Shown here: positions 1 to 9,315 of the stretch, one piece after another | Numbering within the stretch: position 1 is the first letter of the stretch | Layout of the letters: every line of letters starts with the position of its first letter | Assembly (NCBI RefSeq): GCF_003790525.1 | Contig: NZ_CP033635.1 | Direction: 5' to 3' (one strand) | DNA from: Escherichia coli | GTDB taxonomy: Bacteria > Pseudomonadota > Gammaproteobacteria > Enterobacterales > Enterobacteriaceae | DNA: 64,000 nucleotides | Translations under genes and position numbers: made by a program | The notes under the pieces: generated by a model | Told to the model about the DNA's origin: nothing | Databases searched by the model: none | What the model saw: only the letters and a program-made list of their open reading frames with translations

Positions 1-99
1 TAACGAAGAGGTTTGAAGCTCCCGACAAATCCACGTCGCACAACCTAAATATTCAAAAAAATGAATATTTAATTCAAGGAACAGAAACGAGGCAACAAG

Positions 100-1263
100 A
101 TGTTTGTAGAAGCATTGAAACGCCAGAACCCGGCGCTAATTTCCGCCGCACTAAGTTTGTGGCAAAAGGGCAAGATCGCCCCGGACAGCTGGGTGATCGA
201 CGTGGATCAGATACTGGAAAACGGTAAGCGGCTGATTGAGACGGCGCGGCTTTACGGCATTGAACTGTATCTGATGACCAAGCAGTTTGGTCGTAATCCG
301 TGGCTGGCGGAAAAATTGCTGGCATTAGGCTACAGCGGCATTGTGGCGGTGGATTACAAAGAGGCGCGAGTCATGCGCCGCGCTGGTTTGCCGGTGGCGC
401 ATCAGGGGCATCTGGTACAAATCCCTTGTCATCTGGTTTCTGACGCCGTTGAACAGGGAACTGATGTCATCACCGTGTTTACTCTCGACAAAGCGCGGGA
501 AGTTTCTGCGGCAGCGTTGAAGACCGGACGTGTGCAGTCTGTGCTACTCAAAGTTTATAGCGACGATGATTTTCTTTATCCGGGCCAGGAGAGCGGTTTT
601 GCCCTCCAGGTGTTGCCGGAGATTGTCGCCGAAATCCAGAATCTGCCGGGGTTACATTTGGCGGGACTTACCCATTTCCCTTGCCTGCTTTGGGATGAAG
701 CTGTCGGGAAAGTTTTGCCGACACCGAATCTTCACACGCTGGTACAAGCACGGGATCAACTGGCGAAATCTGGTATTGCGATTGAGCAACTGAACGCGCC
801 TTCAGCGACCAGCTGCACTTCGCTGCCATTGCTGGCGGAATACGGTGTGACTCATGCCGAACCCGGTCATGCGCTGACGGGCACTATTCCGGCAAACCAG
901 CAGGGCGATCAGCCTGAACGTATCGCGATGCTCTGGTTAAGTGAAATCTCCCATCATTTCCGTGGCGACAGCTACTGCTACGGCGGCGGTTACTACCGTC
1001 GTGGTCACGCGCAACATGCGCTGGTGTTTACGCCAGAAAATCAAAAGATTACTGAAACCAATCTCAAAACTGTGGATGACAGCAGTATCGACTACACCCT
1101 GCCGCTGGCAGGCGAGTTTCCGGTAAGCAGTGCAGTAGTGCTCTGTTTTCGCACGCAGATTTTTGTCACCCGTAGCGATGTGGTGTTGCTGTCCGGTATT
1201 CACCGTGGCGAACCGGAAATCGTCGGTCGTTATGACAGTCTTGGAAACTCTCTGGGGGCGTAA
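100..1263 (+). CDS. yhfX: YhfX, alanine-racemase-fold (PLP-dependent) family protein
   Basis: 387-aa ORF recognised as E. coli YhfX; first gene of the yhfX-yhfS cluster; stop overlaps next start. Confidence 0.85.
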
Positions 1264-2489
1264 TGGCGCGATTTGTGGTGTTAGTGATTGATAGCTTTGG
1301 CGTAGGCGCAATGAAAGATGTCACGCTGGTGCGTCCACAGGATGCCGGGGCGAATACTTGTGGTCACATCCTGAGCCAGCTGCCGCATTTGCAGCTACCA
1401 ACGCTGGAGAAGTTGGGGCTAATCAACGCATTGGGTTATGCGCCAGGTGATATGCAGCCGTCAGACTCCGCAACCTGGGGTGTGGCAGAGCTGCAACATG
1501 AAGGTGGCGATACCTTTATGGGGCATCAGGAAATTTTAGGCACGCGCCCGTTACCACCGCTGCGGATGCCTTTTCGCGATGTGATTGACCGTGTTGAGCA
1601 GGCATTAGTTTCCGCCGCTTGGCAGGTGGAGCGCCGTGGCGAAGAGTTGCAATTTCTGTGGGTCAATCAGGCGGTTGCGATTGGCGATAATCTCGAGGCG
1701 GATTTAGGCCAGGTCTATAACATCACCGCCAATCTCTCTGTGGTCTCTTTTGACGACGCAATCAAAATTGGTCGTATCGTGCGTGAGCAGGTACCGGTCG
1801 GGCGGGTCATTACATTTGGCGGCCTGTTAACCGACAGTCAACGCATTCTCGATGCCGCAGAAAGCAAAGAAGGGCGCTTTATTGGCATCAACGCGCCGCG
1901 TTCTGGCGCTTATGACAACGGTTTCCAGGTCGTGCATATGGGCTATGGCGTCGATGAAAAAGTGCAGGTACCACAAAAACTGTATGAAGCAGGCGTGCCA
2001 ACCGTGCTGGTGGGTAAGGTGGCAGATATCGTCAACAATCCTTATGGCGTGAGCTGGCAAAACCTGGTGGATAGCCAGCGGATTATGGATATCACCCTCG
2101 ACGAATTTATCACCCATCAGACAGCGTTTATTTGCACCAACATTCAGGAAACCGACCTCGCTGGTCACGCAGAAGACGTCGCACGTTATGCTGAACGTTT
2201 GCAGGTCGTTGACCGTAATCTTGCTCTCCTGGTTGAGACGATGCAGCCAGATGATTGCCTGGTCGTGATGGCGGATCACGGTAACGATCCGACAATCGGT
2301 CACAGCCACCATACCCGCGAAGTCGTGCCGGTGCTGGTTTATCAGCAAGGCCTGGCTGCCACGCAGCTTGGTGTTCGCACCACGCTCTCCGATGTGGGCG
2401 CTACCGTGTGTGAATTCTTCCGTGCGCCACCGCCACAAAATGGTCGCTCTTTTCTTTCCTCCCTCCGGTTTGCAGGAGACACCCTATGA
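1263..2489 (+). CDS. yhfW: YhfW, phosphopentomutase-like metalloenzyme
   Basis: 408-aa ORF; start overlaps yhfX stop (TAATG), stop overlaps php start. Confidence 0.85.
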
Positions 2490-3364
2490 GTTTTGATCCG
2501 ACGGGTTACACCCTGGCCCATGAGCATCTGCATATTGATCTTTCCGGCTTTAAAAACAACGTGGACTGCCGCCTTGATCAGTATGCGTTCATTTGCCAGG
2601 AGATGAACGACCTGATGGCCCGGGGCGTGCGTAATGTGATTGAAATGACCAACCGTTACATGGGGCGCAATGCGCAATTTATGCTCGATGTAATGCGTGA
2701 AACCGGGATCAACGTGGTGGCCTGTACCGGTTATTACCAGGACGCGTTTTTCCCGGAACATGTGGCGACCCGCAGCGTGCAGGAACTGGCGCAGGAGATG
2801 GTCGATGAAATTGAGCAGGGTATCGATGGCACTGACCTGAAAGCCGGAATTATCGCGGAGATCGGCTCCAGCGAAGGGAAGATTACGTCGCTAGAAGAGA
2901 AGGTGTTTATTGCCGCCGCGCTGGCGCATAACCAGACCGGACGCCCGATCTCCACGCATACGTCGTTCAGCACGATGGGGCTGGAGCAACTGGCTCTGTT
3001 GCAAGCCCACGGAGTTGATCTTTCGCGCGTCACCGTCGGCCACTGCGATCTGAAAGACAATCTCGACAACATTTTGAAGATGATCGATCTCGGCGCGTAT
3101 GTGCAGTTCGACACCATCGGCAAGAACAGTTACTACCCGGACGAAAAGCGGATTGCGATGCTCCATGCGCTACGTGACCGTGGGTTGCTGAACCGCGTCA
3201 TGCTGTCGATGGATATTACGCGGCGCTCTCATTTAAAAGCCAACGGTGGTTATGGCTATGACTTTTTATTGACCACCTTTATTCCGCAATTGCGCCAGTC
3301 AGGATTCAGTCAGGCCGATGTGGATGTGATGTTACGTGAAAATCCCTCTCAATTTTTCCAATAA
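2486..3364 (+). CDS. php: Php, phosphotriesterase homology protein (amidohydrolase fold)
   Basis: 292-aa ORF with N-terminal HEHLH metal-ligand motif; start overlaps yhfW stop (ATGA). Confidence 0.9.
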
Positions 3365-3374
3365 GGACAGACTC

Positions 3375-3728
3375 ATGAAAAAGATTGGTGTTGCAGGCTT
3401 ACAGCGTGAGCAGATTAAAAAAACCATTGAAGCGACGGCTCCTGGCTGTTTTGAAGTTTTCATTCATAACGACATGGAAGCGGCGATGAAAGTGAAATCC
3501 GGGCAACTGGATTACTACATCGGCGCGTGTAATACCGGTGCGGGCGCGGCATTGTCGATTGCCATCGCGGTGATTGGCTATAACAAAAGTTGCACCATTG
3601 CCAAACCAGGCATTAAAGCGAAAGACGAGCATATCGCCAAAATGATCGCTGAAGGAAAAGTGGCGTTTGGCCTTTCCGTTGAGCACGTCGAACACGCGAT
3701 TCCGATGCTGATTAACCATCTGAAATAA
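3375..3728 (+). CDS. yhfU: YhfU, small protein of unknown function
   Basis: 117 aa from the ATG at 3375 (MKKIGVAG...) with GGA-rich RBS; the ORF-track start at 3336 is an upstream extension. Confidence 0.8.
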   Translation: MKKIGVAGLQREQIKKTIEATAPGCFEVFIHNDMEAAMKVKSGQLDYYIGACNTGAGAALSIAIAVIGYNKSCTIAKPGIKAKDEHIAKMIAEGKVAFGLSVEHVEHAIPMLINHLK

Positions 3729-3739
3729 AAGGCACGACT

Positions 3740-5044
3740 ATGGATCTGTATATTCAGATTATCGTGGTGGCGTGCCTGACGGGTATGACATCGCTTCTGG
3801 CGCATCGCTCGGCAGCCGTTTTTCATGACGGTATCCGCCCGATCCTGCCGCAACTGATTGAAGGCTATATGAACCGTCGCGAGGCGGGGAGTATCGCTTT
3901 TGGTCTGAGCATTGGTTTTGTGGCCTCGGTGGGGATCTCTTTTACCCTGAAAACCGGGCTGCTCAACGCATGGTTACTCTTTCTTCCTACCGATATCCTC
4001 GGCGTACTGGCGATAAACAGCCTGATGGCGTTTGGTCTTGGCGCTATCTGGGGCGTGTTGATCCTTACTTGCCTGTTGCCGGTAAACCAGCTGCTGACCG
4101 CGCTACCGGTGGATGTATTAGGTAGCCTCGGGGAATTAAGCTCGCCGGTGGTTTCAGCTTTTGCACTCTTCCCGCTGGTGGCGATTTTCTACCAGTTTGG
4201 CTGGAAGCAAAGTCTGATCGCCGCCGTGGTGGTACTGATGACCCGCGTGGTCGTCGTGCGCTATTTCCCACATCTTAACCCTGAATCCATCGAAATCTTT
4301 ATTGGTATGGTGATGCTGCTGGGGATCGCGATAACTCACGACCTGCGTCATCGTGATGAAAATGACATTGATGCCAGCGGGCTTTCGGTGTTTGAAGAAC
4401 GCACGTCACGGATTATCAAAAACTTACCGTATATCGCCATCGTGGGAGCATTGATTGCCGCCGTTGCCAGCATGAAGATTTTCGCCGGTAGTGAAGTGTC
4501 GATCTTCACTCTGGAGAAAGCGTACTCCGCAGGCGTAACGCCGGAACAATCGCAAACACTAATCAACCAGGCAGCTCTGGCGGAATTTATGCGCGGGCTG
4601 GGTTTTGTGCCGATGATTGCCACCACCGCGCTAGCCACCGGCGTGTATGCAGTTGCGGGCTTTACCTTTGTTTATGCGGTGGGCTATCTCTCGCCGAATC
4701 CGATGGTTGCAGCGGTATTAGGCGCAGTGGTTATTTCGGCGGAAGTCCTGCTGCTTCGTTCGATCGGCAAATGGCTGGGGCGCTACCCGTCGGTGCGTAA
4801 TGCGTCGGATAACATCCGTAACGCCATGAATATGCTGATGGAAGTGGCGTTGCTGGTCGGTTCGATCTTTGCAGCAATCAAAATGGCGGGCTATACCGGA
4901 TTCTCTATCGCAGTTGCCATTTACTTCCTCAACGAATCCCTGGGCCGTCCGGTACAGAAAATGGCGGCACCGGTCGTGGCAGTAATGATCACCGGTATTC
5001 TGCTGAATGTTCTTTACTGGCTTGGCCTGTTCGTTCCGGCTTAA
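3740..5044 (+). CDS. yhfT: YhfT, polytopic inner-membrane protein (putative transporter)
   Basis: 434-aa ORF, highly hydrophobic with many predicted TM segments. Confidence 0.85.
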   Translation: MDLYIQIIVVACLTGMTSLLAHRSAAVFHDGIRPILPQLIEGYMNRREAGSIAFGLSIGFVASVGISFTLKTGLLNAWLLFLPTDILGVLAINSLMAFGLGAIWGVLILTCLLPVNQLLTALPVDVLGSLGELSSPVVSAFALFPLVAIFYQFGWKQSLIAAVVVLMTRVVVVRYFPHLNPESIEIFIGMVMLLGIAITHDLRHRDENDIDASGLSVFEERTSRIIKNLPYIAIVGALIAAVASMKIFAGSEVSIFTLEKAYSAGVTPEQSQTLINQAALAEFMRGLGFVPMIATTALATGVYAVAGFTFVYAVGYLSPNPMVAAVLGAVVISAEVLLLRSIGKWLGRYPSVRNASDNIRNAMNMLMEVALLVGSIFAAIKMAGYTGFSIAVAIYFLNESLGRPVQKMAAPVVAVMITGILLNVLYWLGLFVPA

Positions 5045-5055
5045 GGAAGGCACCT

Positions 5056-6141
5056 ATGAAGACGTTTCCTCTGCAAAGCCTGACGCTTATTGAGGCGCAG
5101 CAAAAGCAGTTTGCGCTGGTGGATAGCATTTGTCGCCATTTTCCCGGCAGCGAGTTTCTTGCTGGCGGTGATTTAGGCTTAACGCCGGGGCTGAATCAAC
5201 CGCGCATTACCCAGCGAGTGGAACAGGTGCTGGCTGATGCATTTCACGCACAGGCTGCAGCGCTGGTACAGGGCGCGGGTACTGGCGCGATCCGTGCGGC
5301 GTTGGCGGCTTTGCTCAAACCGGGGCAGCGTCTTCTGGTGCATGACGCGCCTGTTTACCCGACGACTCAGGTCATTATTGAGCAGATGGGGCTGACGCTT
5401 ATTACTGCTAATTTCAATGACCTGTCGGCACTTAAGCAGGTCGTCGACGAGCAACAACCGGATGCGGCGCTGGTGCAGCATACGCGCCAGCAGCCGCAGG
5501 ACGGCTACATTCTGGCAGATGTGCTGGCAACGTTGCGCTCGGCAGGTGTTCCAGCCTTAACCGATGATAACTATGCGGTGATGAAGGTGGCGCGCATTGG
5601 CTGTGAATGCGGGGCGAATGTCTCGACATTTTCCTGCTTCAAGCTATTTGGGCCAGAGGGTGTTGGCGCGGTGGTAGGCGATGCCGATGTTATTAGCCGG
5701 ATTCGCGCCACGCTCTATTCCGGCGGCAGCCAGGTTCAGGGCGCGCAGGCGCTGGAAGTCTTGCGTGGTCTGGTGCTCGCGCCAGTGATGCACGCGGTGC
5801 AGGCGGGGGTATCTGAACGGTTGCTGGCTTTGCTTAACGGCGGCGCGGTGGCGGAAGTGAAAAGCGCCGTCATTGCCAATGCACAGTCGAAGGTATTGAT
5901 TGTGGAGTTTCATCAGCCGATTGCCGCCAGAGTGCTGGAAGAGGCGCAGAAACTCGGTGCCTTGCCTTACCCGGTTGGTGCAGAGTCGAAATATGAAATC
6001 CCGCCGCTCTTTTATCGACTTTCCGGAACGTTTCGCCAGGCGAATCCGCAGTTAGAACATTGCGCGATTCGCATTAACCCAAATCGCAGCGGTGAAGAGA
6101 CGGTATTGCGGATTTTGCGCGAGAGTATTGCCGACGTTTAA
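5056..6141 (+). CDS. yhfS: YhfS, PLP-dependent transferase-like protein
   Basis: 361-aa ORF, last gene of the cluster. Confidence 0.85.
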   Translation: MKTFPLQSLTLIEAQQKQFALVDSICRHFPGSEFLAGGDLGLTPGLNQPRITQRVEQVLADAFHAQAAALVQGAGTGAIRAALAALLKPGQRLLVHDAPVYPTTQVIIEQMGLTLITANFNDLSALKQVVDEQQPDAALVQHTRQQPQDGYILADVLATLRSAGVPALTDDNYAVMKVARIGCECGANVSTFSCFKLFGPEGVGAVVGDADVISRIRATLYSGGSQVQGAQALEVLRGLVLAPVMHAVQAGVSERLLALLNGGAVAEVKSAVIANAQSKVLIVEFHQPIAARVLEEAQKLGALPYPVGAESKYEIPPLFYRLSGTFRQANPQLEHCAIRINPNRSGEETVLRILRESIADV

Positions 6142-6182
6142 TTCTGGGAACGATGTTTTTCGAAGAGTATGGAGAAAAAATA

Positions 6183-6206
6183 CGCCCTCGGAAAATCTCG
6201 AGGGCG
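6183..6206 (-). terminator. Stem-loop (CGCCCTCG-N8-CGAGGGCG) with T-tract on the minus strand; probable yhfL terminator
   Basis: Perfect 8-bp inverted repeat flanked by an A-run on the plus strand; lies in the short yhfS-yhfL spacer. Confidence 0.5.
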
Positions 6207-6247
6207 TCAGGCAATTAAATCAGCATCTGCCAATTTCTGTCAGAGAC

Positions 6248-6415
6248 TTACTGTGCAGTAGGACCGCAACCGCCAATGATTTTAGAAATAGAAATAGCTG
6301 GGTGCAGCAGGTAGTCGTAAGAGCAGTTCTTATCACGGTTTTCAATATGACCAGTACATGCAGTTAACGTAGCCAGTACCGCACCTACCAGTGCAACTTT
6401 AATAAATTTGTTCAT
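6248..6415 (-). CDS. yhfL: YhfL, small lipoprotein (55 aa)
   Basis: Minus-strand ORF MNKFIKVALVGAVLATLTACTGH... with lipobox LTAC; below the ORF-track size cutoff. Confidence 0.75.
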   Translation of the reverse strand: MNKFIKVALVGAVLATLTACTGHIENRDKNCSYDYLLHPAISISKIIGGCGPTAQ

Positions 6416-6631
6416 TTACATTCCCTATGTATTATATATTGATTAATATTCATTGATTATATGAATATAAGCAGACTGCTCATTAAGAATGATACAGGAA
6501 TATTTAATTGGCGTCAGTGAACGAATGACTTAATTTTGTAAGTCGCTGTAACGGTGAATATAACCCATTAGCAGATAATATTTATTAAGGGGGGTATTTT
6601 TATCTGCTGAATATATAAAGAGAGTTGTAAA

Positions 6632-6656
6632 CGAAAAAGGCCAGAATTCTCTGGCC
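6632..6656 (-). terminator. Intrinsic terminator downstream of cysG
   Basis: Hairpin GGCCAGAGAATTCTGGCC followed by T-tract on the minus strand, 10 nt after the cysG stop. Confidence 0.6.
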
Positions 6657-6665
6657 CTGGTTAAA

Positions 6666-8039
6666 TTAATGGTTAGAGAACCAGTTCAATTTATCGCGCA
6701 GGCCAACAACCCGACCAATAATAATTAGCGATGGACTGTTCATTTGCTGCGCCAGTTCGCCCAGCTGCGTGAGCGTACCGTCAATCACGCGCTGCGTGAC
6801 TGCCGTTCCGTTTTCGACAATTGCCACCGGCATTTCGCCAGGCATACCGTGTTCAATCAGCTTTTGCTGAATAGTCGCGGCCTGATTCAACCCCATATAG
6901 AACACCAGCGTCTGTTTTTCTGCCGCCAGGTTTTCCCAGTCCAGTTCGCCACCGGTTTTTAAGTGTCCGGTAATTAAGCGTACGCTCTGGGCATAATCGC
7001 GATGCGTGAGCGGAATACCCGAATAGGCAGAGCAACCAGAAGCTGCGGTAATACCCGGAACCACCGAGAACGGAATGCCTGCATTGCACAGTGTTTCCAG
7101 CTCTTCGCCACCACGGCCAAAAATAAACGGATCGCCGCCTTTCAGTCGCACCACGCGTTTGCCTTTTTGCGCTTCCCGCAGCAGGATCTGGTTAATCTCT
7201 TCCTGCGGTACGCAGTGGTATCCCGCGCGTTTGCCGACGAAAACGCGATCAGCATCGCGGCGTACCAGATTCATAATATCGTCAGAAACCAGACGGTCGT
7301 AGACCACCACATCTGCCTGCTGAATTTGTTGCAGTCCTTTCAGTGTCAGCAGCCCGGCATCGCCCGGACCTGCGCCAACCAGCACCACTTCACCGCGATG
7401 GTCGAGCGGTTCGTTGATTAATTGTTCGGTCGTTTCAGTAATGGCTTTCTGATCGTTGTTTGCCAGCGACTGCGCCAGACGGTCATTAACGAACAGTTTT
7501 TCCCAGAAACGGCGACGTTCACCCATTGTGGCGAACTGTTGTTTCACTCGACCGCGTAATTGCCCGGCGTATTTCGCTACCTGGCCCAGATGCAACGGCA
7601 GCAGTGATTCAAGTTTTTCACGCAACAGGCGTGCCAGAACCGGAGAGGTGCCGCCAGAGGAGACCGCGACCATGAGCGGTGAGCGGTCAATAATTGACGG
7701 CATAATAAAGCTGGCGGCTTTCGGCGCATCGACCACGTTACAGAAGATGCGACGAGCTTCAGCGGCTTCACTGACGCGCTGGTTAAGCGCGTCATCATCT
7801 GTCGCTGCAATCGCCAGCCAGCAGGTGTCGAGAAGGCTTTCATCAAATGGCCCTTCGACGAGGGTTAACATGCCTGCATCTGCCCATGCGGTGAACTGTG
7901 GAATAAACGCTAATGCATTCACCGTTAAGCGAGCGCCTGCGTCTAACAGCAACCTTGCTTTGCGTTCCGCGACATCACCACCGCCGACAATCAGACAGTC
8001 GCGATCGCGTAATTGGCAAAATATAGGCAAATGATCCAC
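6666..8039 (-). CDS. cysG: Siroheme synthase (uroporphyrinogen-III methyltransferase / precorrin-2 dehydrogenase / ferrochelatase)
   Basis: 457-aa [30 protein letters not shown]...; follows nirC as in the nirBDC-cysG operon. Confidence 0.95.
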
Positions 8040-8057
8040 GTAAAAACCCCTTAGTAA

Positions 8058-8864
8058 TTAACCGGCAGCTGTTTCAGTTTGATTAAATTTGTCCGCAACC
8101 GGACGATTCGCTTTCGGCGTAGCATACCAATAACCCAATCCCATGAATACGGCACCTGATAAAGTATTACCCAGCGTCACCCACAGCAGGTTATGACCAA
8201 TACCCGCCAGCGTGTAGGCTTCGCTGTGGTTGCCAAACCAGGAGAGGGCGAACAGCGTCATGTTCGCGATGGAGTGCTCGTAGCCGGACGCGATAAATGC
8301 CAGCAGACACCACCAGATAGCGATAAATTTCGCCGCCCCTTCAGTGCGCAGCGCCATCCAGATAGCCAGGCAAACCAGCCAGTTACACAATGCACCTTTG
8401 AAGAACAGTACCATTGCCGGTGCAGTGGTTTTAGCCAGCGCGACGGAGTGAACGATGCTGGTATCTACCGGCAGCAGGCTACCGCCGCCCCAGCTATAGA
8501 GCATGGCAACAAAGACGGAACCAACCAGGTTACCCAGCCAGGTTTGCGGCAGGATTGCCCACATTTGCCCGTGGCTGATAGTGCCCGCTTTCACTCCAAA
8601 GGTGAGGAACATGGTGTGTCCGGTGAACAGTTCAGAACCAGCAATAATGACCAGCGTTAAGGCGATACCAAAGGTCGCGCCCATCACCAGAGGACGTACG
8701 GACGGGTCGAGCAAATTACCGAGCGTGAAAATCAGGATGATCCCAAGACCCACATACGCCCCCGCCATTGCGGAGCTGACCCAGAAGCCGAGCGGGTTAT
8801 TTGCCGACAGGCGTGCAATGCGCGCAGCGTTAGCCGCACACTTATTAATAGTGTCTGTAAACAT
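8058..8864 (-). CDS. nirC: Nitrite transporter NirC (formate/nitrite transporter family)
   Basis: 268-aa hydrophobic ORF in nirBDC order. Confidence 0.95.
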   Translation of the reverse strand: MFTDTINKCAANAARIARLSANNPLGFWVSSAMAGAYVGLGIILIFTLGNLLDPSVRPLVMGATFGIALTLVIIAGSELFTGHTMFLTFGVKAGTISHGQMWAILPQTWLGNLVGSVFVAMLYSWGGGSLLPVDTSIVHSVALAKTTAPAMVLFFKGALCNWLVCLAIWMALRTEGAAKFIAIWWCLLAFIASGYEHSIANMTLFALSWFGNHSEAYTLAGIGHNLLWVTLGNTLSGAVFMGLGYWYATPKANRPVADKFNQTETAAG

Positions 8865-8988
8865 TTGATTATCCTTTAAAAAATAAAAACAAAAAATAAA
8901 ACAAAAAGTTTAAAAAATGTCCTGCAATATACCAAGGTTATTACAGGACCATGCAAAAAGGGGAGGCATTGTGCCTCCCGTTAAAACA

Positions 8989-9315
8989 TTAACCGCGTAG
9001 CTGCACCACGCCGTCTTTCACTCGCGCGTCGTAATGCTTGACGGAAAACTGTTCGTCTTCCATGCACAAGCCGTCGCTTAAGCGAAAACGCTGTTTTTTC
9101 AGCGGGCTGGCGACCCACAGCTCGCCCTGGTGTTCCGCAATCAGCCCGCGTGACAGCACGCTGGACTCGAAGAACGGGTCGATGTTGCTGATCGCAAACA
9201 CCTGGTCGCTGTGATACGGGCGGAAAATTGCTACCTGCTCGTCACCTAACAGCGCGCAGACGCCGGTTTCAGGCAGGATGTCATCGATTTTGCAGATGTC
9301 TTTCCACTGGCTCAT
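8989..9315 (-). CDS. nirD: Nitrite reductase small subunit NirD
   Basis: 108-aa ORF; start overlaps nirB stop. Confidence 0.95.
   Translation of the reverse strand: MSQWKDICKIDDILPETGVCALLGDEQVAIFRPYHSDQVFAISNIDPFFESSVLSRGLIAEHQGELWVASPLKKQRFRLSDGLCMEDEQFSVKHYDARVKDGVVQLRG

What the first reader, a model, noticed from the sequence alone, without database searches (positions are those of the whole stretch)
100..6141. Six-gene yhfX-yhfW-php-yhfU-yhfT-yhfS cluster: a compact, translationally coupled operon with no assigned pathway
Six co-directional genes are packed with overlapping or near-abutting junctions (yhfX/yhfW share TAATG, yhfW/php share ATGA, gaps of about 10 nt elsewhere), which indicates one operon and probably stoichiometric co-expression. 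The encoded proteins are a PLP alanine-racemase-fold enzyme, a phosphopentomutase-like phosphotransferase, the phosphotriesterase-homology amidohydrolase Php with its HEHLH metal motif, a small unknown protein, a polytopic transporter and a second PLP-dependent enzyme. That combination looks like a catabolic or salvage route for a phosphorylated amino compound, yet to my knowledge no substrate is established. In this strain the operon abuts yhfL directly because the frl genes are absent.
Basis: partly seen in the sequence, partly recalled or inferred. Interest (0 to 1): 0.6.

Follow-up and report, generated by a model that had tools for sequence, protein, structure and literature searches.

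The report
Orphan yhf-php operon, PTS-linked
This is the well-catalogued but still unexplained E. coli yhfX-yhfW-php-yhfU-yhfT-yhfS operon; comparison with about 90 related loci shows it is part of a larger, mobile, sugar-phosphotransferase-linked nutrient-breakdown cluster whose substrate remains unknown.

Summary
Six co-directional genes lie at window 100-6141 with the stated TAATG and ATGA overlaps and 10-11 nt gaps. The frl genes are absent between yhfS and yhfL. The window is E. coli SMS-3-5.

The cluster is cut by the window edge. The regulator gene yhfZ and the PRD-protein gene yhfY lie just upstream and travel with it across phyla. In 61 species-level loci the core is YhfZ, YhfY, YhfU, YhfT, Php, YhfX and YhfW. 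YhfS is present in only 28.

New points:
- A 20-bp palindrome (window 49-68) recurs upstream of yhfZ and yhfX and is a likely YhfZ operator.
- YhfY keeps an invariant PRD histidine.
- HPr or Enzyme I genes are appended to the cluster in four Clostridia.
- No version of the cluster has a kinase.

Best reading: a PTS-linked uptake and catabolic operon for an unidentified amino-bearing, phosphorylated sugar-like or lactone compound. Seven literature searches found no assigned pathway. The locus itself is already known. The mechanistic leads are new but inferred.

The parts
1..16 (+). 3' end of yhfY, a stand-alone PRD-domain protein cut by the window edge. yhfZ, the cluster regulator, lies further upstream outside the window.
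   Evidence: RefSeq annotation puts yhfY at L001 5654-6016, where L001 position = window position + 6000. It gives a weak TIGR03582 PRD hit. H48 is invariant in 72/72 family members within a T-H-x3-A-x2-R motif.
49..68 (.). 20-bp palindrome ATATTCAAAAAAATGAATAT, 31 nt upstream of the yhfX start codon. Candidate operator of YhfZ.
   Evidence: It is the only match to ATMTTCA-W6-TGAAKAT in the 64-kb window (0.01 expected). Two further copies lie directly upstream of yhfZ at L001 4683-4702 and 4707-4726. In the 80 related loci, exact TTCA-W6-TGAA falls almost only just upstream of yhfZ, yhfX or yhfU. It is identical in K-12.
100..1263 (+). yhfX: fold-type III (alanine-racemase-fold) PLP enzyme of the YhfX family. 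Probably a racemase or epimerase acting at an amino-bearing carbon.
   Evidence: Pfam PF01168 + PF21279. PDB 4KBX is labelled 'uncharacterized protein YhfX'. K61 is invariant. Only weak profile links to alanine racemase, YggS and D-threonine aldolase and to ornithine racemase. Present in 61/61 loci.
1263..2489 (+). yhfW: phosphopentomutase-like enzyme of the alkaline-phosphatase superfamily, a paralogue of DeoB.
   Evidence: Pfam PF01676. NF009049 scores 731 bits, but the true deoB model TIGR01696 scores 144.8, below its cut-off of 341. The alignment to B. cereus phosphopentomutase 3M8W keeps the DS-G-G, G-DT--GH, D-(x)-GH, ADHGNDP and HTRE motifs. Present in 55/61 loci.
2486..3364 (+). php: phosphotriesterase-homology protein, a binuclear-metal amidohydrolase. 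Most likely a lactonase or esterase.
   Evidence: PF02126. NF007373 scores 652 bits. PDB 1BF6 and 4LEF. HEHLH motif and ligands H12/H14/E125/H158/H186/D243 present. The nearest characterised relatives are lactonase-type PTE homologues and the phospho-furanose lactonase model, far below cut-off. Present in 59/61 loci.
3375..3728 (+). yhfU (DUF2620): 117-aa soluble protein with an RpiB/LacAB fold and an invariant Cys52 loop (DYYxGAC-N/Q-S/T-G-x-G). Always encoded next to yhfT.
3740..5044 (+). yhfT (PF10797): polytopic membrane protein with about 11-12 hydrophobic segments. Presumed permease partner of YhfU.
   Evidence: Hydropathy. Only PF10797 matches among Pfam families. The family is small, with 305 representatives at 50% identity. 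DUF2620-YhfT pairs persist down to 27% identity and also occur as stand-alone pairs. No detectable similarity to UlaA EIIC.
5056..6141 (+). yhfS: fold-type I PLP enzyme nearest to the Cys/Met gamma-lyase and C-S lyase group. Accessory member of the cluster.
   Evidence: PF00155, PF01053 and PF22475. PDB 4J8L is labelled 'uncharacterized protein YhfS'. K196 is invariant within an S-x-F-K motif. The best profile hits are methionine gamma-lyases, E 1e-11. Present in only 28/61 loci.
6182..6207 (.). GC-rich hairpin between the convergent genes yhfS and yhfL. It is a canonical terminator for yhfL (minus strand) and a possible bidirectional stop for the operon.
   Evidence: Terminator scan. The sequence shows an A-tract 5' and a U-tract only on the minus strand. 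Fold. The frl insertion/deletion boundary lies at about 6172/6173.

Best explanation
The six genes are the permease-and-enzyme part of a conserved, horizontally mobile catabolic cluster, yhfZ-yhfY-yhfX-yhfW-php-yhfU-yhfT-yhfS. The cluster is controlled by its own regulator YhfZ and is wired to the phosphoenolpyruvate:sugar phosphotransferase system (PTS).

Proposed working (inferred steps are marked):
1. YhfZ binds the palindromes in front of yhfZ and yhfX (inferred from conservation).
2. The PRD protein YhfY reports PTS phosphorylation state through its invariant histidine (inferred).
3. YhfT with YhfU takes up an unidentified amino-group-bearing carbohydrate-like compound: an amino-sugar, amino-aldonate or lactone. 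No kinase is encoded, so the phosphate that the downstream enzymes need is most simply supplied during uptake from HPr through the YhfU cysteine loop (inferred, least certain).
4. Php opens a lactone or ester (inferred).
5. YhfX inverts the amino-bearing carbon (inferred).
6. YhfW moves the phosphate between hydroxyls (inferred).
7. Where present, YhfS removes the amino group by PLP-dependent elimination. In some Bacillales an adjacent NagB would do the equivalent on an amino-sugar 6-phosphate (inferred).

Shown: gene order, coupling, conservation, folds, motifs and the operator-like repeats. Not shown: substrate, transcripts, and any phosphorylation.
For: Operon anatomy:
- The junctions overlap or nearly abut.
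- The scan places no convincing intrinsic terminator inside or between the six genes.

Selection: dN/dS is 0.00-0.12 for all eight genes, and the six-gene block is present in 5075 of 5426 E. coli genomes.

Operator: three copies, none elsewhere in the window, conserved in position across families.

PTS link:
- YhfY is a PRD protein with H48 invariant in 72/72 sequences.
- HPr genes lie directly after yhfW in L083, L085 and L086, and Enzyme I after yhfW in L079.
- A possible PRD-DUF2620 fusion appears in AFDB.
- No kinase is present in any version of the cluster.

Enzyme inferences:
- YhfU: RpiB fold with an invariant Cys loop.
- YhfW: catalytic motifs intact.
- Php: metal site intact and lactonase-type relatives.
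- YhfS: lyase-type relatives.
- NagB is appended in L082 and L084, and a Cof sugar-phosphatase in L009.

Parallel architectures:
- The SFCGS / DUF4311-4310 / amidohydrolase / DgaE lyase / KDGP aldolase cluster.
- The ula PTS-plus-lactonase operon.
Against: - No EIIA-like gene was found in any cluster.
- YhfT shows no detectable similarity to an EIIC; hhalign probability against UlaA is 0.2%. It matches no Pfam family other than its own.
- HPr or Enzyme I adjacency is seen in only four Firmicutes loci and in no proteobacterium. PRD and HPr could therefore serve regulation only.
- The accessory genes point in different chemical directions: NagB, amidase, acid phosphatases, an Orn/Lys/Arg decarboxylase next to a lone YhfT.
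- No sigma-70-like promoter is predicted in the yhfY-yhfX gap.
- No expression, phenotype or biochemical data for the E. coli genes were found in the literature searched.
Confidence: 0.5

Rival explanations
1. Same catabolic operon, but the PTS connection is purely regulatory. YhfY (and HPr where encoded) only convey carbon-catabolite status to YhfZ. YhfT is an ordinary secondary transporter. YhfU is a cytoplasmic RpiB-like sugar-phosphate isomerase or an accessory subunit. The phosphate comes with the imported substrate or from a kinase encoded elsewhere.
For: - YhfU's fold is that of RpiB/LacAB isomerases, and the catalytic Cys and Thr/Ser equivalents are kept.
- No EIIA was found, and there is no EIIC similarity.
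- Periplasmic acid phosphatases lie next to the cluster in Pluralibacter and an Enterobacter species. This could fit an externally phosphorylated compound.
Against: - YhfU lacks the RpiB N-terminal Asp-His motif. At 117 aa it also lacks the C-terminal segment that binds the phosphate in RpiB (RpiB residue roles are from my own knowledge).
- DUF2620 is always adjacent to YhfT and also occurs as a stand-alone pair with it. This is more typical of a transport subunit than of a pathway enzyme.
- No kinase appears in any version of the cluster.
Confidence: 0.27
2. The substrate is not a sugar but an amino-acid-derived lactone or lactam, or a basic amino acid derivative: for example a homoserine-lactone-type, ornithine/lysine-lactam-type or D-amino-acid compound. 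Php (with an amidase in Fusobacteriota) opens the ring or amide. YhfX racemises the amino acid. YhfS performs a gamma- or beta-elimination.
For: - Php's closest sequence relatives with solved structures are deposited as aryldialkylphosphatases or phosphotriesterases (E 1e-39). From my own knowledge these are the lactonase-type PTE homologues such as SsoPox.
- YhfX gives weak hits to ornithine racemase and alanine racemase.
- YhfS is nearest to methionine gamma-lyase and cystathionine gamma-synthase enzymes, which act on O-substituted homoserine.
- Amidase-family genes sit inside the cluster in Sebaldella and Cetobacterium.
- A lone YhfT lies next to an Orn/Lys/Arg decarboxylase.
Against: - This reading does not explain the near-universal phosphopentomutase-like YhfW with intact catalytic motifs.
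- It does not explain the PRD, HPr and Enzyme I association.
- It does not explain the appended NagB or Cof sugar-phosphatase.
Confidence: 0.15
3. The cluster is a silent or decaying remnant, or a set of independently acting genes packed together by chance.
For: - No growth phenotype or inducer is known in the literature searched.
- About 351 of 5426 E. coli genomes lack the block.
Against: - All eight genes have the same length in SMS-3-5 and K-12, with dN/dS 0.00-0.12 at dS 0.10-0.23.
- The same gene set recurs in five phyla-level groups with rearranged order.
- A cluster-specific operator is conserved.
Confidence: 0.03
4. The cluster is biosynthetic, making a modified amino-sugar or cell-envelope precursor, rather than catabolic.
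For: Racemase, mutase and PLP enzymes also occur in amino-sugar biosynthesis. The B. thuringiensis plasmid copy lies near ATP-grasp genes.
Against: - A dedicated permease pair, a local repressor-type regulator with an autoregulatory operator, and a PRD protein are hallmarks of uptake and catabolism.
- No glycosyltransferase, nucleotidyltransferase or exporter is conserved with the cluster.
- The distribution is patchy and looks horizontally transferred.
Confidence: 0.05

Closest known systems
E. coli K-12 yhfZ-yhfY and yhfX-yhfW-php-yhfU-yhfT-yhfS (b3383-b3376 by my own knowledge)
   Same: Orthologous locus. Gene order and lengths are identical, with 93-98% nucleotide identity per gene. [quoted passage not shown] Structures are deposited for YhfX (4KBX), YhfS (4J8L), Php (1BF6, 4LEF) and the YhfZ C-terminal domain (2OZZ), with the yhf proteins labelled uncharacterized or hypothetical.
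   Different: In K-12 the frlABCDR fructoselysine operon is inserted between yhfS and yhfL. Here it is absent, as in 2105 of 5424 genomes.
SFCGS / DUF4312 / DUF4311 / DUF4310 - amidohydrolase - DgaE-family PLP ammonia-lyase - KDGP aldolase clusters (the EF_0829-EF_0839 / AHA_3910-3917 family; NCBIfam TIGR03577-TIGR03582)
   Same: Parallel architecture:
- a stand-alone PRD protein;
- a small glycine-rich, cysteine-loop protein;
- novel membrane proteins;
- an amidohydrolase-superfamily metallohydrolase;
- a fold-type I PLP lyase;
- PTS-type regulators nearby.
The gene order comes from a figure legend in PMC11934601. Weak sequence links exist: YhfY to TIGR03582 (E 3.5e-6), a DUF2620 member to TIGR03577 (E 0.009, nearly full length), and another to Pfam Gly_rich_SFCGS (E 8e-4).
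   Different: - All hits are far below the family cut-offs, so this is not membership.
- YhfT is one 434-aa protein with no detectable match to the DUF4310/4311 models.
- The yhf cluster has YhfX and YhfW and lacks the KDGP aldolase.
- That cluster is itself not characterised experimentally as far as I found.
L-ascorbate (ula) regulon of E. coli
   Same: Logic: a PTS permease imports a lactone as its phosphate ester, and a dedicated metal-dependent lactonase (UlaG) then opens it. Epimerases follow, and a local repressor controls divergent units (annotation).
   Different: - UlaA/UlaB/UlaC are canonical EIIC/EIIB/EIIA, and hhalign finds no similarity to YhfT or YhfU.
- UlaG belongs to another hydrolase superfamily (my own knowledge).
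- The ula regulon has no PLP enzymes.
Salmonella dgaABCDEF D-glucosaminate pathway (own knowledge: Miller et al. 2013, J Bacteriol)
   Same: PTS uptake of an amino-sugar acid gives a phosphorylated alpha-amino acid, which a fold-type I PLP ammonia-lyase (DgaE) converts to a keto-deoxy sugar acid phosphate. This is a precedent for 'PTS + PLP lyase acting on a phosphorylated amino compound'.
   Different: - That pathway uses a mannose-family PTS, a sigma-54 activator and a KDPG aldolase.
- It has no Php, YhfX or YhfW equivalents.
- YhfS is only distantly related to that group, with a weak hit to TIGR03576.
- The comparison rests on memory and was not tested here.
Phospho-sugar lactonases of the PTE branch of the amidohydrolase superfamily (NCBIfam NF045706 phospho-furanose lactonase; Lmo2620-type enzymes, own knowledge)
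   Same: Php shares the fold and the binuclear metal site, and it matches NF045706 at E 8e-28. Related solved structures such as 3PNZ match at E 3e-31.
   Different: The score of 97 bits is far below the family cut-off of 630. Php is closer in sequence to the lactonase-type PTE homologues. No substrate for Php was found in the literature searched.
RpiB/LacAB sugar-phosphate isomerases
   Different: - YhfU is about 30 residues shorter.
- It lacks the N-terminal Asp-His motif.
- Its Pfam LacAB_rpiB match is insignificant (E 0.16).
- It is always paired with a membrane protein.

Membership tests
Single polycistronic operon | Co-directional genes with overlapping or very short junctions and ribosome-binding sites in place | tested here: met
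   Overlaps of 1 and 4 nt and gaps of 10-11 nt, each with a Shine-Dalgarno-like purine run.
Single polycistronic operon | No internal intrinsic terminators; terminator at the 3' end | tested here: met
   The consensus scan places no convincing intrinsic terminator within or between yhfX and yhfS; its few short + strand stem matches inside yhfX and yhfS are at chance level (13 found, 10.4 expected). A GC-rich hairpin lies at window 6182-6207 after yhfS, but its U-tract is only on the minus strand.
Single polycistronic operon | One promoter and one transcript covering all genes | not testable with these tools
   No sigma-70-like site is predicted in the yhfY-yhfX gap. One is predicted upstream of yhfZ. 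Six-gene or eight-gene transcripts are both possible. RNA data are needed.
Phosphotransferase system (PTS) permease | Membrane component homologous to a known EIIC family | tested here: not met
   The YhfT family against UlaA gives hhalign probability 0.2%. All 60 members match only PF10797 in Pfam. Other EIIC families were tested only through that Pfam scan.
Phosphotransferase system (PTS) permease | EIIB-type phosphocarrier with a phosphorylatable Cys or His | tested here: inconclusive
Phosphotransferase system (PTS) permease | EIIA component encoded with the system | tested here: not met
   None was found among cluster or appended genes in any locus examined.
Phosphotransferase system (PTS) permease | Association with PRD regulators and general PTS proteins | tested here: met
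   A PRD protein with an invariant His is present in nearly all loci. HPr is appended in L083, L085 and L086, and Enzyme I in L079.
Phosphotriesterase (PTE) family, amidohydrolase superfamily (Php) | PF02126 match, HxH motif and the full set of binuclear-metal ligands | tested here: met
   PF02126. NF007373 scores 652 bits against a cut-off of 486. H12, H14, E125, H158, H186 and D243 are present. It matches PDB 1BF6 and 4LEF over its full length at E about 1e-194; this strain differs from K-12 Php at 5 residues.
Phospho-furanose lactonase (NF045706) | Score above the curated cut-off | tested here: not met
   97.4 bits against a cut-off of 630. This is resemblance only.
Phosphopentomutase DeoB | Equivalog score for TIGR01696 (deoB) | tested here: not met
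   144.8 bits against a cut-off of 341.2. The 'phosphopentomutase' name comes from NF009049 (PRK12383), which YhfW matches end to end (1-408 of 408) at 731 bits.
Phosphopentomutase DeoB | Catalytic Thr nucleophile and metal-binding motifs | tested here: met
   The DS-G-G, G-DT--GH, D-(x)-GH, ADHGNDP and HTRE motifs are conserved in the alignment to 3M8W. The residue roles are from my own knowledge of the B. cereus enzyme.
Alanine-racemase-fold (fold-type III) PLP enzymes (YhfX) | PF01168 domain with a conserved PLP-binding lysine | tested here: met
   PF01168 + PF21279. K61 is invariant in 18 diverse members. That K61 binds PLP is inferred, not verified against the 4KBX coordinates.
Alanine-racemase-fold (fold-type III) PLP enzymes (YhfX) | Second catalytic base typical of two-base racemases | not tested
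   This would need a structural superposition of 4KBX on alanine racemase, which these tools cannot do. The sequence links to racemases are weak.
Fold-type I PLP, Cys/Met-metabolism lyase group (YhfS) | Pfam or profile match and a conserved S-x-x-K lysine | tested here: met
   PF00155 and PF01053 (weak). Profile hits to methionine gamma-lyases at E 1e-11. S193 and K196 are invariant.
RpiB/LacAB isomerase (YhfU) | Fold and catalytic Cys loop | tested here: met
RpiB/LacAB isomerase (YhfU) | Significant family-model match and full-length active-site complement | tested here: not met
   PF02502 gives E 0.16. The protein is 117 aa against about 150 and lacks the N-terminal Asp-His motif (the RpiB features are from my own knowledge).
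EF_0829/AHA_3910-type cluster (TIGR03577-03582) | Scores above cut-off for the PRD and SFCGS family models | tested here: not met
   YhfY scores 27.3 bits against a cut-off of 69.35. The best DUF2620 member scores 16.2 bits against 141.1. This is an analogous, distantly related system, not a member.

The most novel reading that the evidence does not exclude
YhfU and YhfT form a previously unrecognised class of PTS-coupled permease. In it an RpiB-fold protein with an invariant cysteine loop replaces the usual EIIB, and a membrane protein unrelated to any known EIIC replaces the usual channel. The pair is sensed by a minimal one-domain PRD protein (YhfY) that controls a GntR-like regulator (YhfZ). 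The SFCGS/DUF4311/DUF4310 systems would be a sister branch of the same class. The pathway behind it would degrade a gut- or environment-derived amino-sugar acid or lactone that no known E. coli route handles.
Probability: 0.22. Interest if true: 0.75.

Novelty: new variant of a known kind. Interest (0 to 1): 0.5.

Why it matters
This is one of the longest-standing orphan operons of E. coli. The depositors' names in the PDB still read 'uncharacterized' or 'hypothetical' for YhfX, YhfS and YhfZ and 'phosphotriesterase homology protein' for Php, and I found no assigned function for any of them. The operon is present in about 93% of complete E. coli genomes.

The comparative picture turns a vague 'unknown pathway' into specific experiments:
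- a defined regulator-operator pair to derepress the operon;
- a candidate phosphorelay (Enzyme I / HPr to YhfY-H48 and YhfU-C52) that can be tested in vitro;
- a minimal conserved enzyme set (Php, YhfX, YhfW) for substrate screening.

If the YhfU/YhfT pair proves to be PTS-coupled, it would add a new permease architecture to a system considered well catalogued. If it does not, the result is still the assignment of a nutrient route in the best-studied bacterium.

Tried and rejected
1. YhfT as an Asc-type EIIC and YhfU as an Asc-type EIIB. hhalign probabilities were 0.2% in both comparisons, so no homology is detectable.
2. Single-sequence AlphaFold model of YhfU. It gave pLDDT 43.5 and was unusable. 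I repeated the prediction with a 21-sequence alignment.
3. Wide YhfT alignments (A1, A2) as seeds for the genome scan. The narrower A3 alignment worked, but it biases the 80 loci towards at least 53% identity. More distant contexts came from contig look-ups.
4. Retrieving SFCGS-family sequences for a proper profile-profile test. The DUF2620 profile search listed only DUF2620 proteins, and tblastn on plasmids found only DUF2620 genes. The DUF2620-SFCGS link therefore rests on weak HMM hits.
5. Foldseek against AFDB50. It returned essentially only DUF2620 proteins.
6. Search for a conserved extra enzyme, such as an aldolase, kinase or EIIA, next to the cluster. None is shared across taxa. Neighbours mostly reflect local synteny.
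7. Rfam scan of the locus. It found no RNA family, so there is no riboswitch or leader.
8. An operator pattern with a 7-nt spacer. This was my counting error and gave no matches. I corrected the spacer to 6 nt.
9. The adjacency of frl in K-12 as a functional clue. I rejected it because frl is absent here and in 39% of genomes, and it is not linked to the cluster in other genera.
10. Literature. Seven searches on gene names, old names, PDB and UniProt identifiers, DUF names and operon strings gave no pathway assignment. Many hits were the unrelated Bacillus and Staphylococcus yhfS/T/U genes.

Full report
**Identity of the window and check of the observation**

Window 1-9000 is 100% identical to E. 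coli SMS-3-5 (NC_010498.1, minus strand). The mechanical ORF list and the RefSeq annotation agree on six co-directional genes:

| Gene | Window coordinates |
|---|---|
| yhfX | 100-1263 |
| yhfW | 1263-2489 |
| php | 2486-3364 |
| yhfU | 3375-3728 |
| yhfT | 3740-5044 |
| yhfS | 5056-6141 |

Read directly from the sequence:
- The yhfX stop and yhfW start share TAATG.
- yhfW and php share ATGA.
- The remaining gaps are 10, 11 and 11 nt, each with a purine-rich ribosome-binding stretch.

Php carries HEHLH at residues 12-16 and the full set of binuclear-metal ligand positions.

K-12 has frlRDCBA between yhfS and yhfL. Here yhfL follows yhfS directly, as in 2105 of 5424 complete E. coli genomes.

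**What the window hides**

The left edge cuts the cluster. yhfY ends at window position 16. yhfZ, a GntR-type regulator with HTH_41 and YhfZ_C domains, lies just upstream after the trpS terminator.

The simple consensus scan finds no terminator in the 83-nt yhfY-yhfX gap. It also places no convincing intrinsic terminator inside or between the six genes; its few short + strand stem matches within yhfX and yhfS are at chance level (13 found, 10.4 expected). It finds a sigma-70-like promoter only in front of yhfZ. Operon tables reproduced in PMC4448311 list php, yhfS, yhfT, yhfU, yhfW and yhfX as one six-gene operon. Whether the transcript covers six genes or eight cannot be decided from sequence.

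**Comparative genomics**

YhfT belongs to a small family. Only 305 representatives at 50% identity reach E 0.001 among 1.84 billion proteins. A scan of one genome per species confirmed 148 loci, and 80 were fetched.

I mapped the eight E. coli proteins onto all ORFs of these loci. The same gene set appears in rearranged orders:

| Taxon | Gene order |
|---|---|

In 61 loci with full flanks the counts are:

| Gene | Loci with the gene (of 61) |
|---|---|
| X | 61 |
| U | 61 |
| T | 61 |
| php | 59 |
| Y | 57 |
| W | 55 |
| S | 28 |

The partnership persists at 27-37% YhfT identity in metagenomic contigs. It also occurs on plasmids of Bacillus thuringiensis and Cetobacterium somerae. A DUF2620-YhfT pair also occurs alone.

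The conserved unit is thus a seven-gene core, with YhfS as an accessory member. The patchy distribution across phyla indicates horizontal spread.

Within E. coli the six-gene block is present in 5075 of 5426 complete genomes. Between SMS-3-5 and K-12 all eight genes have identical lengths and dN/dS of 0.00-0.12 at dS of 0.10-0.23. This excludes a decaying remnant.

**Regulation**

A 20-bp palindrome, ATATTCAAAAAAATGAATAT, lies at window 49-68, 31 nt before the yhfX start codon. The pattern ATMTTCA-W6-TGAAKAT has no other match in the 64-kb window, where 0.01 is expected. It has two further tandem copies immediately upstream of yhfZ. The second copy overlaps the predicted yhfZ promoter.

In the related loci, exact TTCA-W6-TGAA occurs almost only directly upstream of yhfZ, yhfX or, in Enterovibrio, yhfU. 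Clostridial loci have a GTACA-W7-TGTAC variant at the same places. I infer that this is the operator of YhfZ, that yhfZ is autoregulated, and that yhfX heads a regulated unit. This is inference from conservation. No binding was tested.

**Link to the phosphotransferase system**

- YhfY is a stand-alone PRD domain. The E. coli protein gives a weak TIGR03582 hit, and homologues give clear PF00874 hits.
- In 72 family members His48 is invariant within a T-H-x3-A-x2-R motif. The second PRD histidine is kept in Firmicutes and replaced by Asn in Proteobacteria.
- By established knowledge, PRD domains are regulated by phosphorylation from HPr or EIIB proteins.
- Independently, HPr-family genes lie directly after yhfW in three clostridial loci (72-92 bits against a cut-off of 48). 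Enzyme I lies there in a fourth locus (738 bits).
- Foldseek against AFDB50 returned one 245-aa protein annotated as a transcriptional antiterminator whose half matches YhfU. This may be a PRD-DUF2620 fusion. I did not verify it.
- No version of the cluster encodes a kinase, although YhfW and the Php relatives point to phosphorylated intermediates.

**The individual proteins**

- **YhfT.** It has about 11-12 hydrophobic segments, matches only its own Pfam family, and shows no similarity to the EIIC UlaA.
- **YhfW.** It keeps the phosphopentomutase catalytic motifs but fails the DeoB equivalog cut-off.
- **YhfX.** It has an invariant Lys61 and only weak links to alanine or ornithine racemases, YggS and D-threonine aldolase.
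- **YhfS.** It has an invariant S-x-F-K196 motif and is nearest to methionine gamma-lyase-type elimination enzymes.
- **Php.** Its nearest solved relatives are deposited as aryldialkylphosphatases and phosphotriesterases, which I recognise from my own knowledge as lactonase-type PTE homologues. It matches the phospho-furanose lactonase model far below cut-off.

**Accessory genes**

These vary by lineage:
- NagB directly after the cluster in two Bacillales (294 bits against a cut-off of 237).
- A Cof-type sugar-phosphatase in a distant metagenome-assembled genome.
- An amidase-family gene inside the cluster in two Fusobacteriota.
- Periplasmic acid phosphatases in two Enterobacterales that lack yhfS.
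- An Orn/Lys/Arg decarboxylase beside a lone YhfT.

They point to amino-sugar phosphate chemistry but do not agree on one substrate.

**Most likely mechanism**

Taken together, the six genes are the working part of a YhfZ-controlled, PTS-linked uptake and catabolic cluster. The substrate is an unidentified amino-bearing, phosphorylated carbohydrate-like compound.

The proposed order is:
1. Uptake by YhfT/YhfU, possibly with phosphorylation from HPr.
2. Ring or ester opening by Php.
3. Inversion at the amino carbon by YhfX.
4. Phosphate shift by YhfW.
5. Deamination by YhfS, or elsewhere by NagB.

This order is inferred from family chemistry and gene association only. I put the overall reading at about 0.5. 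By component:

| Component of the reading | My estimate |
|---|---|
| Co-regulated catabolic operon | about 0.85 |
| At least a regulatory PTS link | about 0.7 |
| PTS-coupled phosphorylation through YhfU | about 0.3 |

The main counter-evidence is the missing EIIA, the lack of EIIC similarity, the RpiB rather than EIIB fold of YhfU, and the restriction of HPr and Enzyme I adjacency to four Firmicutes loci.

**Comparison with what is known**

The locus is orthologous to the K-12 yhf/php genes. The PDB entries for these proteins are still deposited as 'uncharacterized protein', 'hypothetical protein' or 'phosphotriesterase homology protein'.

The closest architectural parallel is the SFCGS / DUF4312 / DUF4311 / DUF4310 - amidohydrolase - DgaE lyase - KDGP aldolase cluster. 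The yhf cluster fails that family's model cut-offs.

The ula regulon offers a functional analogy: PTS uptake of a lactone followed by a phospho-lactone lactonase. There is no homology of the permease parts.

Seven literature searches found no pathway assignment. A January 2026 paper still lists yhfW among uncharacterized or less-studied genes and calls it a putative mutase. The library lacks most subscription-journal papers, so an assignment published there could have been missed.

**Verdict**

- The locus itself is a known orphan.
- What this analysis adds is a candidate operator, the RpiB-like fold and invariant cysteine of YhfU, the invariant PRD histidine, the HPr/Enzyme I association and the seven-gene conserved core. 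All of these give direct experimental handles.
- Interest is moderate (0.5). It would be higher if the YhfU/YhfT pair proves to be a new kind of PTS permease.

Noticed in passing
window 6142-6250 (hairpin 6182-6207); frl boundary about window 6172/6173: The GC-rich hairpin between the convergent genes yhfS and yhfL has its U-tract only on the minus strand (the yhfL terminator) and an A-tract on the plus side. The frl insertion/deletion breakpoint seen in frl-positive genomes lies about 10 nt before it.
   Followed up: partly
window 100-6141 across E. coli genomes: About 351 of 5426 complete E. coli genomes have no match to the six-gene block. The O157:H7 examples match only the yhfL-cysG side, which suggests lineage-specific loss of the whole cluster.
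   Followed up: partly
window 100-6141 against K-12 (L100): Synonymous divergence between SMS-3-5 and K-12 is high for a chromosomal E. coli locus (dS 0.10-0.23, highest in yhfS next to the frl indel), while dN/dS stays at or below 0.12. This may reflect recombination or an older allele at this locus.
   Followed up: no
L083 15752-16114; L085 15752-16114; L086 14933-15253; L079 14974-16758: HPr-family genes (three loci) and a PTS Enzyme I gene (one locus) are appended directly after yhfW in Clostridia.
   Followed up: yes
L082 15779-16588; L084 15787-16656: A glucosamine-6-phosphate deaminase (NagB, above the family cut-off) follows the cluster in Thalassobacillus and Melghirimyces.
   Followed up: partly
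L067 11323-12375; L092 10714-11745: An amidase-family gene sits inside the cluster, between yhfT and php or yhfS, in the two Fusobacteriota (Sebaldella, Cetobacterium).
   Followed up: partly
AFDB entry A0A1I0YHP2 (Lentibacillus halodurans), hit 18: A 245-aa protein annotated as a transcriptional antiterminator matches the YhfU model over about half its length. This may be a PRD-DUF2620 fusion that would tie YhfY and YhfU together. The sequence was not retrieved.
   Followed up: no
L008 1068-3765: A YhfT homologue (36% identity) without DUF2620 or the other yhf genes lies directly upstream of an Orn/Lys/Arg decarboxylase (OKR_DC_1). This hints that some family members carry basic amino compounds.
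   Followed up: no
L041 11330-12151; L044 11191-13041: In Pluralibacter and an Enterobacter species that lack yhfS, genes for secreted acid phosphatases (e(P4) 5'-nucleotidase type and PhoC type) follow yhfT on the same strand.
   Followed up: no
L091 14582-18357; L095 11815-15917: In the Bacillus thuringiensis plasmid version (PRD-DUF2620-YhfT-PTE-PLP-racemase, with no YhfW or YhfZ), the cluster is followed by several ATP-grasp genes.
   Followed up: no
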